A stretch of 63,047 nt of DNA, filler included, from Babesia bigemina (lineage: Eukaryota), in the NCBI RefSeq assembly GCF_000981445.1. It is 6 parts of 6 records of this genome, joined end to end, with 100 filler letters (N's around TTAATTAATTAA, not from the genome) between each part and the next. Parts side by side here need not be neighbours in the genome. Positions count along the whole stretch, not along the records: positions 59,660 to 63,047 come from NW_012237205.1; 5 more parts are not named here. One strand, 5' to 3'. Position numbers and translations under genes: made by a program. Shown here one piece after another: positions 17,435 through 63,047 of the stretch. The notes below the pieces were generated by a model. It ran no database searches. It was not told where the DNA came from and worked only from the letters and a program-made list of their open reading frames with translations. Numbering within the stretch: the first letter of the stretch is position 1; the number at the start of each line of letters is the position of its first letter.

Positions 17435-17534
17435 NNNNNNNNNNNNNNNNNNNNNNNNNNNNNNNNNNNNNNNNNNNNTTAATTAATTAANNNNNNNNNN
17501 NNNNNNNNNNNNNNNNNNNNNNNNNNNNNNNNNN
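17435..17534. other. Artificial contig spacer (44 N + TTAATTAATTAA + 44 N)
   Basis: Six-frame stop linker within an N run, 100 nt. Confidence 0.97.
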
Positions 17535-35032: not shown

Positions 35033-38000
35033 ATGATTTTTATAAACCACAATAATAACTTGTGACTTGTCACCCTTCACTTCCCTTACTTCTTCTACTG
35101 TCGCCTCGTCTGCCGACTCGGCTCTTTCTACTGGCAAGCCTACTAAGTCTACTACTCCCGCGAAAAAAAGTTTTGAAGAGATTAAAAAAGACATTAATGA
35201 AGAAGTTACAAAGCTTCCTAAAACCATAAAAGAACTTGAAAATGACTCTTCTAATGATGATGTTACTAAGCGTTTATCTGACTGTCAGTCCAAGTTGGAG
35301 GCTTTGCAGACTGTGAATAAGCTTGCTGAATTTGCTGATTCACTTACTAAAAAACCTGAAAATGATAATATTTTAACGCATTTATGTTCCGCCCTCGAGA
35401 AATTCCTCGGCTTCGACCCGAAATCAAAAGGCTACGACGGCAGTGGTATTGTGTACTCTGACCTTGACAGGCTGTGTGATGCAGTGATGGGATTTTTGAG
35501 TGGTGTGCTTAAGGATGTCAGCGAGAAACAGCCTTACAGTGTGGGTAAAAATGATTTAAAACATTTTGTTGAGACAGAATTAAAAACTAAATTATCCACC
35601 GGGCGTGAGGGTTTTAAGGTCATTGAGCAGGTGGCGAGGAAGGTGCGGGAGTATAATGATAAAGTAAAAACATCGAATGAAAAAGTGAAAAACATCATAA
35701 ATGAAATGAAAAACAGCGTCGGTGAGACGTTGACAAAAAAGATGCATGCTATAAATAATGATCATCCTGTAGAAACTGACGTCACGGCAGCCGAAGCCTT
35801 GGCCAACGAGTATGCTTCAAAAGGTACGGATTTCATAAACGGTTTCCGTGTTCGAAAGGATTTCAATATTAAACAAGGTGCGAAGTACGATGATATAGAC
35901 GAATTTAAGGACTTGAATCCTGACGTACAACAGAAAATTACTAATGCTATACAAAACATTTCGTATGAAGCTACACGGCTTGGTGCGTTGTCTGCGAAGG
36001 AAATAAGTAACTTTGATGAGATGACAGCGAAGATCAAAGATACGTTTAGTTCGCTTAAAAGATGCGTGAATGATCAGATCGGCCTTAAAGTACATGCCCT
36101 CGTTTCCGAATTAGTGAAAATAATAAACAACATTTGGAACTCGCTAAATGAAATTGCCGATACGCTGCGGCAATATATAACAGAGTTGGTGGAGTGGATT
36201 ATTGAGGCAGACAAAATCATGACTGAAGCAATCAAGGGGGCGAGGGAAATTGAACAGAAGAATCCGGGCTGGAGAGAGCAGCTAACAATTGAGGGTAAAG
36301 CAAACGAATTGAAAAACAAAGGTGAACAGCTTTATCAGAAATTCGAGAGTGCAAAGCAGAAAGTTGAGAACAATGTAAAAGCAGCGCTTGGGAAGGTGAA
36401 AGAGATGGACGGGAAGCTGAAGGAGGATTTGTATAAGGTTAAGCAAGCGGTGGATGCGCAGGTGGCGGAGATTAAAAATAAGATTGGACAGATGTACAAG
36501 CAAATTGACCCAAGTGTCAACCAGGTAACGGCGGATAACAAGCAAAAGATTGATACACTAATGAAGCACATTAAATCAAAAATTGGAGTGATTGCGGGAA
36601 GTGGCGTAAGAGTAACGAAAGGACTAGATATAATAAAAAAAACAATTAAAACATACGTCAGAGCGTTTAGAGAAAGCTTGGGGGGAAAGGTTGAAGAATG
36701 GTTAACAGATATTATAAAGAAGGAACCAGTGAAATGGTATATTTCAAAGTATGCCTTAAATAATAAGAATATAATTCATCAGGAATACCGGAATGCTACT
36801 GATGACGATGATGTGTATTCACAACTTGCCACTAAAATTGCAAGCGTTATTAAGGGGCAGTTCGAAAGTGAAGTTAACGGCAACATGATCCGTAAAGCTG
36901 TTGAAGACGTAGCTTCGAATCAAAATGCAAACATCGAAAACAATTTGCAAGACATTAAAACCATTTGCACAAGTTTTGCAGACGCACTTGATCGGAAACT
37001 TAAGAACAGCGCCTTGAAAGGTTCCCAGGTTCAAAATCCTGAAATTACATCTTTCATCAAAAGTATAGCAAGCACAATTGAGAAAGCGCTCAGGGAATCG
37101 GACTATGATTCTTCAACGGCCATCCCCGATTTTTATCTTATATCTGGTCTCCACTCCATCCTCCCGTCGTTGGCTGCTTCCGCAAGGCATCTAGCAAAGG
37201 AAGTTGATAGCCTCGCCTTGCAGCCTAACGGAAACAGTATTGGCAAACAATTGGACGACGCAGCGTCCACGGCTAATGAGCTATACGGTAGGTTCGAGAC
37301 GGTGCTTGGCTTACCACCTGATCCCGACCGTGAAAAACCCAATCACGCCAAAGCCGTCGACACCGCGATCGAGGGTGTGACTGCAGAGCTTGCGAAAAAG
37401 CTGAAGCCAGGTGACGCTAATGCGGTCAAGCTTGATAAAGACGATACGTTCCGGCAATACAATGGTTTCGTCGAGCAAGATAATTTGGCCGCCCTTACTA
37501 ACCCTGACTTCAACATCATCAAAAGCGCAGGCTCCCTCCCCGCGGCGATCGGTGTGATCAGAGAAAAAATGGTGAAAGACCTAGATGAGGCATGCAAGGA
37601 GACAAAAAACGCAACCGTATTCGACACATTATCCAAAGAAATCAAAAATAGTCTAAATGCGCTTGTCAATGCGTTTGCAGAAGCTGGTGAAGAGGTTAAA
37701 AAAAAATTGGTAACTTTTAATAATACGAAAATCGGCAAAACTGCACACGGCGTTGAAGCCGCAAGCGACACTTTGCAGAAACTTCAGAAGAATCTCCTCG
37801 ATTTGCTAACCGGTAAACTGGAACCTCTCATTAAGTTGGCCAACAAATGCATCAGAAGTGACGCCGACGTGTTTAAAAAACGATGCATTGACAGCCTCAC
37901 ACAACATGTCAACACTGAATCTCAAGAAGCAGTAGACAAGCTCATCACTCAAGCAAGAAAGCTGTGCATATCGTCAATGAAGTCTTCCCTCGAACAATTT

Positions 38001-40727
38001 TCGGGGAAGGTCACCGAGGAGCTGAAGCCCCTGCCCACCCTCATCGACACCGACAGGCGGCACGGCTTTAAGGGTTTTATGCGGACGTTGGAAGGGACGA
38101 TTGGAGATGATGGTGGGACGACGGACGAGAATATTGCGAGACTCAAGGGTCTCGTAGGTCAGCTGTCAGGGCATGTGAAACATAAGGACACGTTCCAAAA
38201 TCTGTCGCAGAAATTCAAACAGTTCTGGCATCCACTCCACGACTACCTCAAAGAAGAGACCAAAAGAGTTCACGCAGCGAATAACGAGAAAACCAATCCC
38301 GAGCCCACCGGCGAGGAACCACTCTACACCTCCAAACTCGACGCTGCTAATACCGCGCTCAACAGCCTACTCGATCACATTAGTAATCACCGCTACAACC
38401 ACGAAGTGCCCTTCATGCTAGATCAGCTCTCCGCTGCAATTGCCACCCTCGCTCCCGAATCCTTTGCCAGGACCACGACCCCCCTGCTTGACGGTATAAG
38501 TAAGGGGCTGGGTAAGTTTGCGGCTGAACTAGGGAAGGCGTACATCTCTGCCTACGACAGTGAGACGTTTGGCGGCGAAATGTTCGAGAAGCAGAAATTA
38601 ACGCCGTATGGCGCCAAATTCGCCAAAATATGCTTCACCGTGGTATGCACCCTAAAGGCCACTTTGACCGACTTGACGCACAATTGCAAGAGTCTACGTG
38701 GACAGCAAATTAATAAGTCCACCGACGTGGGAAGATCGTTTGTCGCCCACGGCTACGCGGTCTCCGATGCGACGCTGCAAAACGGCGAGTTGCAAAACAA
38801 ACCGACAGTGGCGGGGGAGAACGTTGCCAAGCGGCTGCTGCTACCAATTCGCGGCGCCAACGAGAACCAACACCTTAGATGGTGTGAATCGAACAAGCAG
38901 AGAAAAGCCGACCACTTCCACGTCTTCGACGCCATTGACTGCATATTCAGTCACTTCGAGCAGTACAATGAACTGTGCCACCTGCTCACGGCCTCAGCGA
39001 AGCAGCACCCGTGCTCCGTGTACGACATATTGATCTGGCTCAGCGGTTTCCCGTACACTGCAGTATATGCTTCGATGCGTGATATAACCATCAGTGATCT
39101 GTTTGACAACCCGCATAAGAAGGCGGCCGGCGACGACGAACTTGAGCTCACATCGACTGACATGGCAGCCCAATCCATAACGGCGCACCCCCGAAACATA
39201 TCGTATACTTACGTACGTAAAGCTGTGGACCATATCTGTGCGACGTCGTATGACGTGTTGACTGCCGTCGTCGGCACTGGCGACTCCAGGACCGTTTACG
39301 CCTCCGACTTCTGCAACAACTCATTCAATTTCCATTACCCATCCGATCCGTCGGACTGCCTTGACATGCTGCTGGACCTACTGCGCCGATTGTTGCCCGT
39401 GTTCCGGTTCCTGGAACTGCAGTGTAACATCAAGCCTGAACACCACGGCTGGTCACACTGCCGCTACGGGAGGGACATCCCTACAACCAAATCGCAGTGT
39501 AACGAGCACTCAAGCGAGGAACCAAACGGCCAAGCAAAGTGCCAAGTAAATTGCCAAGCAACGTCCCCGCTTATGTTATACCTCAGTGACAGCCTCCCTG
39601 GCCATCTGCCGCACCAACTGCAGTCAGTGGGATGCAGGGCGAAATGCAGCACCTGCTCCAAGAGCGCTCCAGGGCAACCGTGCCTGCTTCCTCTCGGATT
39701 TAAGGGCTTCTCGGGAAGCTCCAAAACGGGCAGGCAGTTGCGTGACGTAATCAATACCTTCCTCAGTACAGGCTTAATATCCTCACTGATGTGCCTTCTG
39801 CCCAAGCCACCATCGACGCTGCCCGAGCACTTCCAGTTTGTATTTACCTTGGTTGGTGCGTTTAATGCTAGCAGAGATGGCAACTCAAATGCCGTCAATG
39901 CTGCGTTTGTGAAGGCAATCAAGAAGCAGTCCATCGACTTGTATGCGGAGCCATCAGAACTCACAGGCGCGCTTAGTGACGCTTACAGAAGCAGCCAAAG
40001 TCATGAGGGTAGAAATCATCCGAGACCTACGGAGGCCGACCTGTCAAGTCTGTCTAAAACAGAGTCCTGCAAATACGCTAGTACTGACGATGTTCACTGC
40101 GCTCCGTACCTGACCACGTTGCACAGCGATGCATACCAATACGCGGCCGAAAAGCACGCCGGCCTCTACCTGTCATGGGCAGTGTACTTACCGTGGTCGT
40201 TCTGGCAGTGTCTTGAATCTTTGTTCAGGGCGTTTACCAATATATCCTGCCAGGATTGGGGATGTCGTCGCTGTACGCACGGCACAGCTTGTAAACGGGG
40301 TAAGCATGGCGCTGCCTATAACTGCCAGTGCAAAGGCCTCGTTGAATGCCGCGGTGTCATAAGCACGTTATATAGTTTCGGGTTCACGTTCGGCAATCCT
40401 GAAAAATTGTTAGACGCTGAAGGTAGAAGGTATTGCCACAATTTCTACAAACAACTCAACAATGTATTAAATTCCAACTACTTCAGAACGCTGTTCGAAA
40501 AATGCGACGAATTCATATTCACCATTAGACAGCCGTTTATATGGCTTAACGTCGCACTCTGGTCACTATCCCTCTTCTACCTCATCTGCGTAATGGTTGG
40601 CAGACTGGATGTGCTCCACATCAAATCACACCTGAGATCACCGTCATCGCACAAGATAACGGCGCAATCACTGTTGGCTGCAGCGCAAGTCGGAAGGCTT
40701 GCCAAGATATCGTATCTACAACCGTAA
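35033..40727 (+). pseudogene. ves1: ves1/VESA1-like gene (class II tail); leader ATG at 35033 meets TGA at codon 11 and is out of frame with the intact 1886-aa body ORF (35067-40727)
   Basis: ATG ATT TTT ATA AAC CAC AAT AAT AAC TTG TGA; body has SDLDRLCD, Cys-rich domain, TM, AQVGRLAKISYLQP. Confidence 0.72.
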
Positions 40728-59559: not shown

Positions 59560-59659
59560 NNNNNNNNNNNNNNNNNNNNNNNNNNNNNNNNNNNNNNNNN
59601 NNNTTAATTAATTAANNNNNNNNNNNNNNNNNNNNNNNNNNNNNNNNNNNNNNNNNNNN
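59560..59659. other. Artificial contig spacer
   Basis: N run with TTAATTAATTAA. Confidence 0.97.
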
Positions 59660-59950
59660 GTGTCGGCTAGGTGCCCAAATGTGATATTAACGATGGCTAC
59701 ATCGCTGCATATAAATGCCATTTAACCAGGCCAACTCGGATTACGCCACCGTGCCAGTGACTCGCAACACACGACTTAGGTCACCCGCCGCGGCGCTCAC
59801 GGACGCCTACGTTAGCAACCAATCACCCAGCCTCACGTGACACTGACTCAATGGGCAACGCGGACACCTCTCACAGTCAACGCACAACTCAACTCACCAG
59901 ACAATCAACGTGCTACAACACCTACTAAATTACGGTTCATCCGCCAGCTT
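59660..59950 (-). repeat. Conserved non-coding element (copy of 31230-31513)
   Basis: Reverse-complement alignment by eye. Confidence 0.85.
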
Positions 59951-60270
59951 CGCACTTTGCCTTGATGCCAGCTTATCACTTTGCCTGGGTGCCAGCTTAA
60001 CACTTTGCCTGGCTGCCAGCTTAACACTTTGCCTGGTTGCTAGGTCAGCACGTTGCCTGGTTGCCAGCTTAGCACTTTGCCTGGCTGCCAGCTTACCACG
60101 TTGTCTGGTTGGTAGGTTAGCACTTTGCCTGTGTGCTAGGTCGCCACGTTGCCTGAGTGCTAGCTTAGCACTTTGCCTGGGTGCTAGGTCAACACTTTGC
60201 CTGGTTGCTAGCTTAGCACTTTGCCTGGTTGCTAGCTTAGTACTTTGCCTGGTTGCTAGGTTAGCACGTT
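59945..60270 (-). repeat. 21-bp minisatellite array
   Basis: Tandem TGCTAGCTTAGCACTTTGCCTGG-type units on + strand. Confidence 0.95.
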
Positions 60271-60415
60271 GGATTGTCGTTCAGTCATCACCTACTTTAG
60301 CTGCTATTTAGTTCACAGGTTGCCGCAAGAGTAATTCGAGACATTAGACTACGTTTGTCGGTTAGGTGAGTAGGTGAGTAGTTACGTGAGTTGATGTGAG
60401 TTACAAATGTGACGA

Positions 60416-61450
60416 TCACGGTTGTAGATACGATATCTTGGCAAGCCTTCCGACTTGCGCTGCAGCCAACAGTGACTGCGCCGTTATTTTGTTCGACGAC
60501 GGTATCCTCAGGTGTGACCTGATGTGGAGCACATCCAGTCTGCCAATCATGACGCAAAGGAGGTACAGGAGGGATAGTGACCAAAGTGCGAGGACCATGT
60601 AGGTGAACGGTTCTCTGATGGTCCAAATGAAGTTGTCACATTCCTCAAATAATTTGGTGAAGTATTGCGATTTTAGCAGATTACTCAGTTGTGTATTGAA
60701 ACTAAGGCAGAATTTTCTGTTAGTTCCATACAGCGTTTTTGCGTCGCCAAAAGTGAACCCGTACTGGTAGAACGTAGTCATCACTCCACGACAGCTTATC
60801 AGTGCCTTGCACTTGCAGCTGTACTCGACACCATGCTTTCCCGGCTTGCACGAACATTTCGTACAACCGGAGCCTCCACAATCCATTTGCTGGAACGCAT
60901 CGAGCAACGATTTAAGGTAACTGTAGAATGTCCACGGCAGATATACAGCCCATGACAGGTAGAGATCGGCGTGCTTTTTGGCGAGGTACGTGTACGCATC
61001 GGAAGATGTGGAGCAGAGGTAGGGAGCACAGTGAATATCTTTGTTATGAGGTAGATCACATGATTCTCTTGACAGGCTTGACAAGTCAGCCTCCGTAGAT
61101 TTGGAATGGTCCGAACTGTTGTGGCCCGTTTGGTTGCGATATGCATTCTGCAGCGCACCTGTGAGTTTGCTTGTCTCCTTGTATAGCTCGATTGAGAGCG
61201 CTTTCGTTTTCGTTTGAAAAGCTAAGCTGACATCACTAGCGGCTTTAGCGTTATCTAACATATTACTTAAGGTCAACGCAAATTGGAAGTGCTCTGGCAA
61301 CGTAGATGGCGGCTTGGGCAGCAGACCGAACAGCGTGTTAATATTAGAATTGTCGAGGAATTTGGTCAGCACGTTACATATGTCCTTACCTGTCTTCGTG
61401 CTTCCAGAGAAACCTCTGAAGCCAAGTGGTGTTATACATGGCGCACCACC
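60416..61450 (-). pseudogene. ves1: 3' remnant of a ves1/VESA1-like gene (class II tail) interrupted by a retrotransposon
   Basis: Frame reads GAPCITPLGFRGFSGSTKTG...LPEHF...AQVGRLAKISYLQP; ves homology stops at ~61447-61450 and an in-frame stop lies at 61463-61465. Confidence 0.85.
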
Positions 61451-61452
61451 AG

Positions 61453-63047
61453 TTAAATTAAGTTATCTCATCTTATAGTGTGCTATGTGGCTACGTGCCT
61501 AGGGCCGGTTTTCGTGTTTGCGGGGCTAACGCCTCACGCTGAAACCGGTTGCGGGATCCACGCCGGTCCATTGCCGGACGTCACTGGTGCCATCCATGCG
61601 GGCATCCATCCAGTTTGGGCTTGAGGGTCTTCTACGGAATCGTAGTCTTCTTTCGGCTTCATATCCCTCATCACTATTTTATGTGTTTCTTGGATCACTA
61701 CCCTTTGTATGTGGGCTTCCATGCGATCCGATATGCCCAGGTCCCGTCTATACTTGCTGTGTTCTTTCGTCACTATTCCCTCCCACGTCATAACGTAGGG
61801 GATAACCCTGATCTTGGTGTGCTGGTTAAACTGTCGCGCCTTGAGGTCCTCAATAAGGTCTTCATACTTCTGCTTCTTGAACTTCTCCGTATCCACTAGG
61901 TTGTCTTGATTGGTGATTCCTATCTCCACGATGGTTATGGTGTTCCTCCGCCGATCCGCCAGGATGATGTCTGGCCTGTTGTATTCCTTAGTCTTCTGAG
62001 TCTTGACCGTCTTGTCGTACGCGATCCATCCGTATTTTCCATGTACTTCACTCTCGATCTTGTGGGCGTCTATCTTCTCCTTGGGTAGTCCTATTTGCCT
62101 CCCGAGTACTGAGTGGACCCGTTTTGCTACCTCGTTGTGCCTCTTCGTATATTCTAGGTGTAGTAGTTTCTGGCACTTCGTCGCGAGGTGATCCACGTTC
62201 TTGCCGTTGTTGCATCTTGTGCATTTCTTGGACGAAGACATCCATTGCAGATTCCTATCCTGGACTTCCGCTACGTTCGCTTCTTCTTCCGGAGTGAGTA
62301 TTCCACACGTCAGGTACAAGGACGACGCCTCAATGTCCAGCTTGGGGTCCTCACGCTTGGCATACAGAACCTTATGAGTTGATTTTACGTGCATTCTGTT
62401 GTACAGCCATTTGTTTTGGGCCACCCTGAGGTCCCTGAGGCTCTTGTCCGTAGTGTCCTCCATTCCGAATTCCATTCCATATCTTCCTTCCAGGTGCATC
62501 TTGATGTGAGATATGTGCGCGTATGTGTCGCGAAAATGCTGCATGATCGCAGCTCTCCTGGTTGACGTCACCTCGTCTGCTGAAAGCGTCAACCACAGTC
62601 GTAGCAGCATGGCTTCCGCTCTAAATACCATGCTGTGGAGCCCTCTCCCCATCTCTTTCCGGGGGAGGTAGAGCCTCTGTGTGTTCGCCCACTTCTTGTG
62701 TCCGTGCTTCGCGTTAATTATTCTCCGTACTGCCAGGTCGATCTTGTCGAAATGCGTGATGTCCATAGGGATCACGCCGATGTAGTAGTTGATGACGCTG
62801 AGGGCGTACTGGTTGATGGCCATCGAGAGGTTTTTCCCCGACAGCTTTGACGCAGCCAGTAGCTCCGTTCTCCTGCATATCTCCTGTAGTATTATGTCGA
62901 ACATTCCGTCGCTTGTCAGTGAGTTTGAAGTCTCTGTGACTCCCAAGTACTTGTACGTTTCCGGGCCTTCCATCTGCTTGGCGATGCTGGCGCACGCCTC
63001 CGTGTTGGTTGCCGACTTGTCGCGGTTGATCCTGAGTCCTATGTCGT
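61453..63047 (-). mobile_element. Non-LTR retrotransposon of the restriction-like endonuclease (RLE) type, R4-like; 3' portion including ~80-nt 3' UTR
   Basis: Domain order RT > CCHC > RHN > PD-(D/E)xK-like endonuclease, short 3' UTR with AT-rich end, abrupt junction with ves coding sequence. Confidence 0.9.
61534..63045 (-). CDS. Reverse transcriptase C-terminus, CCHC zinc knuckle and RLE endonuclease (5'-partial)
   Basis: Frame open to window end: DIGLRINRDKSATN...YKYLG (late RT motifs), RLYLPRKEMGRGL, CTRC..DHLATKC, YTKRHNEV, RPDIIL..TIVEIGIT..KKQKY. Confidence 0.92.
   Translation of the reverse strand, partial: DIGLRINRDKSATNTEACASIAKQMEGPETYKYLGVTETSNSLTSDGMFDIILQEICRRTELLAASKLSGKNLSMAINQYALSVINYYIGVIPMDITHFDKIDLAVRRIINAKHGHKKWANTQRLYLPRKEMGRGLHSMVFRAEAMLLRLWLTLSADEVTSTRRAAIMQHFRDTYAHISHIKMHLEGRYGMEFGMEDTTDKSLRDLRVAQNKWLYNRMHVKSTHKVLYAKREDPKLDIEASSLYLTCGILTPEEEANVAEVQDRNLQWMSSSKKCTRCNNGKNVDHLATKCQKLLHLEYTKRHNEVAKRVHSVLGRQIGLPKEKIDAHKIESEVHGKYGWIAYDKTVKTQKTKEYNRPDIILADRRRNTITIVEIGITNQDNLVDTEKFKKQKYEDLIEDLKARQFNQHTKIRVIPYVMTWEGIVTKEHSKYRRDLGISDRMEAHIQRVVIQETHKIVMRDMKPKEDYDSVEDPQAQTGWMPAWMAPVTSGNGPAWIPQPVSA

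What the first reader, a model, noticed from the sequence alone, without database searches (positions are those of the whole stretch)
61534..63045. RT protein resembles microsporidian non-LTR elements: candidate horizontal transfer
Motifs KSATN, AINQxAxSVINY, GRGLHS, STRRAAI, VDHLATxC, ExGIT.QD.L and IPYVMTWxGIVTK match my recollection of RT proteins annotated in microsporidia more closely than typical metazoan R4/Dong elements. This is recall, not a search result. If true, exchange between intracellular parasites sharing an arthropod host is plausible.
Basis: inference. Interest (0 to 1): 0.75.

Follow-up and report, generated by a model that had tools for sequence, protein, structure and literature searches.

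The report
Microsporidian-type jumping gene in Babesia
This is the tail end of an intact, multi-copy jumping gene (a LINE-type retrotransposon) of a tick-borne cattle parasite, and its protein family tree places it among the jumping genes of microsporidia, unrelated fungus-like parasites, so it was likely picked up from them long ago by horizontal transfer.

Summary
Window 61534-63045 (-) is the last 503 aa of a 1347-aa single-ORF retrotransposon protein (end of RT, thumb, CCHC knuckle, restriction-like endonuclease; folds like R2 proteins). Near-identical full-length copies lie on Mb-scale Babesia bigemina contigs; relatives occur in B. ovata, B. caballi, B. divergens and Theileria equi, so contamination is very unlikely. 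The nearest named relatives outside piroplasms are microsporidian elements (RT core 47-59% to Vairimorpha apis/Hamiltosporidium, 25-35% to insects). Trees nest the piroplasm elements among microsporidian ones; placing them outside is rejected (AU p 0.012, 0.002, RT-only 0.0005), though not on the window fragment alone (p 0.088). Best reading: an old transfer from a microsporidia-centred lineage, still recently mobile in Babesia; this copy interrupts a ves-like gene. Caveats: genuine mite elements sit in the same wider clade, most close relatives are unnamed, and no named tick or other alveolate element was available, so the immediate donor and a tick setting are unproven. LINE-like elements in these species are in print; their origin was not found in the papers searched.

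The parts
61534..63045 (-). C-terminal 503 codons (plus stop) of the element's single ORF; 5' part cut off by the end of the window
   Evidence: 100% identical to residues 845-1347 of P0122
62935..63045 (-). last 37 residues of the Pfam RVT_1 domain (KSATN motif; the YKYLG motif lies at its edge)
   Evidence: RVT_1 = P0122 640-881, E 5e-30
62173..62223 (-). CCHC zinc knuckle C275-x2-C278-x7-H286-x4-C291, followed by the RHN motif
   Evidence: four ligands invariant in 24 of 24 rows of alignment A3; aligned motifs
61864..61974 (-). restriction-like endonuclease core: P358-D359 ... E374 ... K390/K393-Y394
   Evidence: invariant in A3; model matches R2 proteins, E 4e-10 to 2e-8
61452..61533 (-). 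3' untranslated end of the element, 82 nt, ending in a short A/T-rich repeat tail
   Evidence: no contig of four runs extends below 61452 and loose ends differ between copies
60416..61451 (-). 3' end of a ves-like (variant surface antigen-like) gene, about 343 codons, interrupted by the element in the same orientation
   Evidence: 58% identical to residues 1543-1893 of the 1893-aa paralogue at 35046-40727; 7 of 10 long window ORFs match it; the name ves1-like is recalled plus the description in PMC4066756, Pfam VESA1_N did not hit
59560..59659 (.). artificial joint between contigs (N44 - 12-base spacer - N44); the element's contig piece is 59660-63047

Best explanation
This is the 3' third of an intact, multi-copy RLE-type non-LTR retrotransposon of Babesia whose lineage likely entered an ancestor of Babesia and Theileria equi by horizontal transfer from a microsporidian element lineage. 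Shown: single 1347-aa ORF with RT, CCHC knuckle and PD-(D/E)xK-type endonuclease; near-identical copies; many different 3' flanks; nesting of the piroplasm proteins among microsporidian ones. Inferred from the R2 group: the protein would bind its own RNA, nick A/T-rich chromosomal DNA with the endonuclease and copy the RNA at the nick (target-primed reverse transcription). Inferred: one old entry (or two, one each for Babesia and T. equi), then diversification inside piroplasms, loss in the species without it, and recent copying in B. bigemina. Untested: that the transfer took place in a tick or that a microsporidian was the immediate donor.
For: Real host DNA: identical or near-identical proteins on 2.8 and 3.5 Mb contigs named B. 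bigemina, relatives on 0.8-4.0 Mb contigs of B. ovata, B. caballi, B. divergens, T. equi, and contigs laid from seven public runs. Recent copying: 5 of 7 compared B. bigemina proteins differ at 0-4 of 1165 residues. Kinship: RT-core identity of six piroplasm rows is 51-59% to Vairimorpha apis and 47-58% to Hamiltosporidium, equal to Babesia versus T. equi (47-56%), at or above insect versus insect (41-53%) and above V. apis versus Dictyocoela (44%); 25-35% to five insect rows. Nesting: 30-row tree, branches 99.1/99 and 99.4/100 (SH-aLRT/UFBoot) enclose piroplasms with Vairimorpha, Hamiltosporidium, Pancytospora, Nucleospora, then Enteropsectra, leaving Dictyocoela, Amphiamblys and a second Enteropsectra family outside; same nesting in 190-, 93-, 56- and 30-row trees. 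AU tests reject microsporidia as one clade apart from piroplasms plus outgroup: p 0.012 (LG+F+G4), 0.002 (PMSF C10), 0.0005 on RT only. Long-branch attraction would pull the long Babesia stem outward, not inward (inference). Early-branching rows of the clade include named Dictyocoela. Non-LTR elements are reported as ancestral in microsporidia (PMC3486916 passages) and microsporidia exchange transposons with animals (PMC4202319 passages). GC3 of 0.67 against 0.35-0.51 in five related loci fits long residence.
Against: On the window fragment alone (446 columns) the outside placement is not rejected (p 0.088). The sister group of the piroplasm elements is unresolved (open polytomy in all trees) and 28 of the 41 rows of the enclosing clade are not named microsporidia or piroplasms. 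The wider clade holds genuine animal insertions: L004 carries an intact copy 99.5% identical to a Dermatophagoides protein, in animal-type flanks with an 11-bp target duplication. Hits labelled Octopus, Polistes, Scirpophaga and Menopon (flagged contaminant) have unresolved hosts. No named tick, Eimeria, gregarine or Perkinsus element was available for the tree; 17 Eimeria elements classed R2-like exist in print. The careful mixture-model bootstrap trees did not finish and constrained searches were short.
Confidence: 0.72

Rival explanations
1. Horizontal, but through an animal go-between: an acarine (tick or mite) or other invertebrate host carried a member of this clade and passed it to the piroplasm ancestor.
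For: Dust-mite elements are true insertions in the same wider clade; piroplasms develop inside tick cells (established knowledge); many close relatives are unnamed; a Polistes-labelled protein lies in the inner clade.
Against: Grouping piroplasms with the mite elements is rejected (AU p 6e-5 and 2e-4); the mite elements are themselves sister to an Enteropsectra family (96.3/99); no tick-named protein among the 120+120+120 listed hits, though repeats are often masked before annotation, so this is weak.
Confidence: 0.15
2. Deep vertical inheritance from the last common ancestor of opisthokonts and alveolates, with loss nearly everywhere else.
For: Utopia elements are argued to predate the eukaryotic supergroups (PMC4640811 introduction and passages); PMC9141347 offers ancestral presence in Babesia plus Theileria with losses.
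Against: Piroplasm-microsporidian RT identity (up to 59%) exceeds that between microsporidian families and matches or exceeds that between insect orders; the nesting would need several paralogous lineages kept since the root of eukaryotes and lost in all other named taxa.
Confidence: 0.06
3. Reverse direction: an apicomplexan gave the element to the microsporidia of the inner clade.
For: Piroplasm rows branch at the base of the inner clade's polytomy; in the RT-only constrained tree the root fell inside Babesia; some microsporidia live inside gregarines (PMC6190962 abstract).
Against: That rooting is rejected (p 0.0005); deeper branches are microsporidian (Enteropsectra, Dictyocoela, Amphiamblys), so the element would still have entered apicomplexans from that clade first.
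Confidence: 0.05
4. Contamination or misassembly: microsporidian DNA in the Babesia assembly.
For: The window is a chain of short joined contigs; no laid contig bridges the element-ves junction at 61452.
Against: Copies on Mb-scale contigs of five piroplasm species; the five Babesia rows form their own clade at 100/100; found in contigs of independent runs with strain-level differences.
Confidence: 0.02

Closest known systems
Microsporidian non-LTR elements annotated as reverse transcriptase (Vairimorpha apis P0042, V. necatrix P0495, Hamiltosporidium P0173/P0174/P0036, Pancytospora P0496, Nucleospora P0511, Enteropsectra P0484/P0165, Dictyocoela P0168/P0508, Amphiamblys P0092)
   Same: Same single-ORF layout, shared N-terminal R[MVI]P[RK]xGW motif in the full-length rows, KSATN, DHLATxC and E-x-G-[IV]-T signatures; RT core 39-52% identical to the B. 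bigemina protein.
   Different: Host is an apicomplexan; about 200 extra low-complexity N-terminal residues; GC3 0.67; long Babesia stem branch (0.5-0.65).
LINE-like elements of B. bigemina, B. ovata, B. divergens and T. equi (Rodriguez and Makalowski 2022, PMC9141347); RT-motif gene cluster of B. caballi (PMC10463595)
   Same: Very probably the same elements: same four species, three B. divergens copies classed R2 by MGEScan; expansion of RT-motif genes in B. caballi.
   Different: Those papers give presence only; the words microsporid and horizontal occur 0 times in the main text of PMC9141347. I did not compare sequences with their models.
R2 retrotransposon proteins (R2Bm 8gh6/8ibw, R2Tg 9nl3/9dou, turtle R2 9nl2)
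   Same: The predicted fold of the window fragment matches them over about 470 columns, TM 0.57-0.63, E 4e-10 to 2e-8; RT, CCHC knuckle, RLE order.
   Different: 11-14% identity; no N-terminal zinc finger found; not inserted in 28S rDNA, flanks vary.
R4 clade, Dong elements (TAA-microsatellite targeting, PMC3812793 passage)
   Same: RLE-type, no N-terminal zinc finger (recalled feature of R4), A/T-rich repeat ends; the mite relative sits in a (TTA)n repeat with an 11-bp duplication; nearest outside group is insect elements incl. a Bombyx protein that may be Dong-like (recalled, not checked).
   Different: Only 22-35% identical to these insect proteins and separated by a 100/100 branch; endonuclease has E-x-G-[IV]-T where they have D-[IF]-x-x-P; this copy sits in a coding sequence, not a microsatellite.

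Membership tests
RLE-type (R2 group) non-LTR retrotransposon | RT domain of non-LTR type with Y/FxDD | tested here: met
   RVT_1 E 5e-30 and YIDD in the identical full-length P0122; profile hits LINE-1 and R2 chains best. Outside the window itself.
RLE-type (R2 group) non-LTR retrotransposon | C-terminal CCHC knuckle and PD-(D/E)xK-type endonuclease | tested here: met
   Invariant C275/C278/H286/C291, P358-D359, E374, K390/K393; top 7 fold matches all R2 proteins.
RLE-type (R2 group) non-LTR retrotransposon | Single ORF, no APE domain, no LTR, simple-repeat 3' end | tested here: met
   Only RVT_1 in P0122; 3' end at 61452 with A/T-rich repeat tails and varied flanks. The 5' end was not seen.
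RLE-type (R2 group) non-LTR retrotransposon | Target-site duplication and target-primed reverse transcription | not testable with these tools
   5' junction is outside the window and no genome is held; an 11-bp duplication was seen only for the mite relative L004.
R4 clade / Dong | RT tree placement with named R4, Dong, Rex6, EhRLE references | not testable with these tools
   No clade-labelled reference sequences were available; the outgroup proteins carry no clade names.
R4 clade / Dong | Sequence-specific insertion (TAA repeats or 26S rDNA) | tested here: inconclusive
   Window copy is in a ves-like coding sequence; 30-base loose ends differ, a few are TAA-rich, which may be tail or target.
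R2 clade proper | N-terminal zinc finger(s) and insertion in 28S rDNA | tested here: not met
   No zinc-finger Pfam hit; flank is not rDNA.
Microsporidia-centred RLE clade (as recovered here) | Supported nesting among named microsporidian elements | tested here: met
   99.1/99 and 99.4/100 branches; AU p 0.012, 0.002, 0.0005; not significant on the C-terminal fragment alone, p 0.088.
Horizontal transposon transfer | Patchy distribution in the recipient phylum | tested here: inconclusive
   Named hits only in five piroplasm species; absence in B. bovis, C. felis and three Theileria is taken from PMC9141347, not re-tested; no eukaryotic genome search was available.
Horizontal transposon transfer | Element divergence lower than host-gene divergence (dS test) | not testable with these tools
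   Too old for dS; only protein identity against internal yardsticks was measured.

The most novel reading that the evidence does not exclude
Microsporidia are the long-term reservoir of a distinct RLE retrotransposon clade that has jumped across eukaryotic supergroups more than once, into piroplasms (possibly twice) and into astigmatid mites; in Babesia it is still active and lands preferentially in the variant-antigen (ves) gene family, making it a foreign source of antigen-gene rearrangement in a phylum thought nearly free of active transposons.
Probability: 0.2. Interest if true: 0.85.

Novelty: new member of a known kind. Interest (0 to 1): 0.63.

Why it matters
Most apicomplexans have no transposons, and the one survey that found LINE-like elements in Babesia and T. 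equi could not choose between ancestral presence and invasion. A microsporidian affinity favours invasion and names the source lineage. It would be a LINE transfer between two unicellular parasites of different eukaryotic supergroups, a class of event rarely shown for LINEs, and would record an old physical association between microsporidia and piroplasm ancestors. Near-identical intact copies make this a candidate active retrotransposon in a livestock parasite, and at least this copy breaks a variant-antigen-like gene.

Tried and rejected
No genome held for the window, so copy number, 5' end and target duplications could not be measured. Pfam and PDB sequence searches with the fragment alone found nothing relevant. 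Careful PMSF-C20 bootstrap trees did not finish in time; the quick SH-aLRT versions are quoted. Naming the unnamed relatives mostly failed: of 10 looked up, 1 Polistes, 1 Octopus, 1 bacterial-bin label, 7 no name; of 10, 2 named Dictyocoela, 1 with the organism cut off, 3 bacterial-bin labels, 4 no name. Metagenome and prokaryote-genome scans gave 80 and 47 loci, only 6 with close relatives and only L004 with informative flanks; no rRNA in 8 loci scanned. ESM Atlas gave only generic RT clusters, commonest phylum Arthropoda, uninformative. No RNA holder listed; runs guessed as RNA were not used as evidence of expression. The host of the Octopus-labelled proteins could not be settled from papers. 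Piroplasm monophyly is neither shown nor rejected (29/53 support; AU p 0.14). ves targeting was not tested for enrichment: the tail of fused model P0251 matches window ves-like ORFs (E 2e-127), P0153 carries VESA1_N (E 1.5e-6), P0240 is a weak match, P0249 gave none. Rows dropped before trees: one search used 190 of 242 eligible rows (47 near-duplicates, 3 frameshifted B. caballi models, 2 over-long rows removed); later trees are hand-picked subsets of 93, 56, 30, 26 and 31 rows. Not-in-print searches; Repbase Reports and subscription journals were not searchable.

Full report
Observation. It runs off the end of the window. It is identical to residues 845-1347 of a 1347-aa protein, P0122, whose cluster has 10 members, 3 of them named Babesia bigemina, some on contigs of 2.8 and 3.5 Mb. 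The window is a chain of contigs joined by artificial spacers; the element's piece is 59660-63047. No whole genome was held.

Anatomy. P0122 has one Pfam domain, RVT_1 at 640-881, so the window holds the last 37 RT residues, the thumb and linker, a CCHC knuckle (C275, C278, H286, C291) and an endonuclease core (P358-D359, E374, K390/K393), all invariant in 24 of 24 aligned rows. The AlphaFold model (pLDDT 82.5, pTM 0.80) has 7 PDB matches at E below 0.001, all R2 retrotransposon proteins. The element's 3' end is 61452, 82 nt past the stop: no contig from four runs extends below it, and loose ends at 61452-61473 differ between copies and are often A/T-rich repeats. One contig of 4608 bases matches 61452-63047 without a difference and continues, which suggests a unit of about 4.6 kb. 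Beyond 61452 lies the last third of a ves-like gene in the same orientation, 58% identical to residues 1543-1893 of a paralogue in the window; the copy therefore appears inserted inside that gene. No laid contig bridges this junction. The label ves-like is recalled and fits the conserved C-terminal domain described in PMC4066756 (passages); Pfam VESA1_N hit none of the 11 ORFs scanned. Five of seven compared B. bigemina proteins differ at 0-4 of 1165 residues, two at 23-37: recent copying plus an older subfamily.

Relatives. Three homologue searches listed 120 of 169, 120 of 134 and 120 of 381 hits; a fourth listed 150 unnamed of 1684. The top named hits are B. ovata (two families), B. caballi, B. 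divergens and T. equi (13 cluster members on 0.8-3.7 Mb contigs). Next come unnamed environmental proteins and named microsporidia: Hamiltosporidium, Vairimorpha apis and necatrix, Enteropsectra, Pancytospora, Nucleospora, Dictyocoela, Amphiamblys. No tick and no other alveolate is named in these lists. Over the RT core the six piroplasm rows are 51-59% identical to V. apis, 47-58% to Hamiltosporidium and 25-35% to five insect rows; Babesia versus T. equi is 47-56%, insect versus insect 41-53%, V. apis versus Dictyocoela 44%. Over the window part, B. bigemina is 32-42% identical to nine microsporidian rows and 22-25% to insects. Six of the seven motifs are absent from 10 of 10 insect proteins; GRGL is not diagnostic.

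Trees. In all trees on RT plus C-terminus (190, 93, 56 and 30 rows) the five Babesia rows form one clade (100) and sit, with T. equi, inside a clade with Vairimorpha and Hamiltosporidium (and Pancytospora and Nucleospora where included; 98-99), itself inside successively larger clades adding Enteropsectra, Dictyocoela and Amphiamblys, all apart from the insect outgroup (100). In the 30-row bootstrap tree the two enclosing branches have 99.1/99 and 99.4/100. Forcing the named microsporidia into one clade apart from piroplasms and outgroup costs 53 log units and is rejected, AU p 0.012 under LG+F+G4 and 0.002 under PMSF C10, p 0.0005 on RT alone. On the window fragment alone it is not rejected, p 0.088, so the nesting rests on the RT domain of the identical full-length copy. 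Grouping piroplasms with mite elements is rejected. One entry into piroplasms is neither shown nor rejected. Inside Babesia, B. caballi groups with B. divergens (97.6/100) although the species tree puts it nearer B. bigemina and B. ovata (PMC10463595 passages); with two B. ovata families this points to paralogous lineages or later exchange. Two early-branching rows of the whole clade are named Dictyocoela.

Complication. The clade is not purely microsporidian. Locus L004 holds an intact copy 99.5% identical to a Dermatophagoides protein, between animal-type genes, in a (TTA)n repeat with an 11-bp duplication on both sides. The mite elements are sister to an Enteropsectra family, which looks like a separate transfer. 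The immediate donor is therefore open.

Mechanism. Shown: domain order, intact catalytic residues, multiple copies and flanks. Inferred from the R2 group (established knowledge): nicking by the endonuclease and target-primed reverse transcription of the element's RNA, here without strict site specificity. Inferred history: entry from the microsporidia-centred lineage before the Babesia species split, amelioration to host base use (GC3 0.67 against 0.35-0.51 in five related loci), patchy loss, recent bursts. A tick as meeting place is plausible but untested; microsporidia that live inside apicomplexan cells are known (PMC6190962 abstract and passages).

What is known. PMC9141347 (passages, section 3.2, term search of its one supplement) reports LINE-like elements in B. 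bigemina, B. ovata, B. divergens and T. equi, absent from B. bovis, C. felis and three Theileria, and leaves gain versus loss open; it does not mention microsporidia or horizontal transfer. PMC10463595 (passages) notes RT-motif gene expansions. Term searches of PMC5660447, PMC3505731 and PMC4066756 found no mention of reverse transcriptase. PMC4202319 and PMC7313128 (passages) cover microsporidian transposon exchange with animals, not apicomplexans. PMC3486916 (passages) reports ancestral non-LTR elements in microsporidia. PMC4640811 (introduction and passages) and PMC3812793 (passage) supplied the RLE clade scheme and Dong's target. PMC9498864 (passages) was no help. Searches found no paper linking these elements to microsporidia; Repbase Reports, subscription journals and most supplements were not seen. 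The scan held no note on this sequence or genome and one note on a different LINE in a fish.

Verdict. Real, intact retrotransposon of a known kind, already catalogued as present; the microsporidian affinity and probable cross-supergroup transfer appear unreported and are well supported, the route is not. Interest 0.63.

Noticed in passing
L004 9663-13349: Intact member of the same clade in house-dust-mite-type DNA (99.5% to a Dermatophagoides protein), inserted in a (TTA)n repeat with an 11-bp target duplication; mite elements are sister to an Enteropsectra family, a likely second microsporidia-to-animal transfer.
   Followed up: partly
proteins P0251, P0153, P0240, P0249: Public gene models fuse this element's ORF to ves-like sequence in B. 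bigemina, B. caballi and (weakly) B. ovata, suggesting repeated insertion in or beside variant-antigen genes; enrichment not tested.
   Followed up: partly
window 490-60300: The rest of the window is a chain of contigs with about ten long ves-like ORFs flanked by 12- and 24-base tandem repeats; five artificial N44-spacer-N44 joints at 17435, 19887, 24133, 33583 and 59560.
   Followed up: partly
proteins P0320, P0339, P0478, P0479, P0487, P0491, P0506: Several families of this clade are annotated on 0.1-1.3 Mb Octopus sinensis scaffolds; they may come from an unrecognised parasite in that assembly.
   Followed up: no
L081, L082; proteins P0012, P0021, P0152, P0350, P0361, P0371, P0374: Eukaryotic elements of this clade are binned into bacterial genome bins and carry bacterial names in public databases.
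   Followed up: no
proteins P0002 and P0124: B. ovata holds two element families only 53% identical in the RT core; one is 80% identical to the B. bigemina family.
   Followed up: partly
alignment A1 columns 320-335 (P0122 about 262-290): A conserved N-terminal W...R[MVI]P[RK]xGW motif is shared by piroplasm, microsporidian and unnamed elements; no Pfam match, possibly the DNA-binding module.
   Followed up: no
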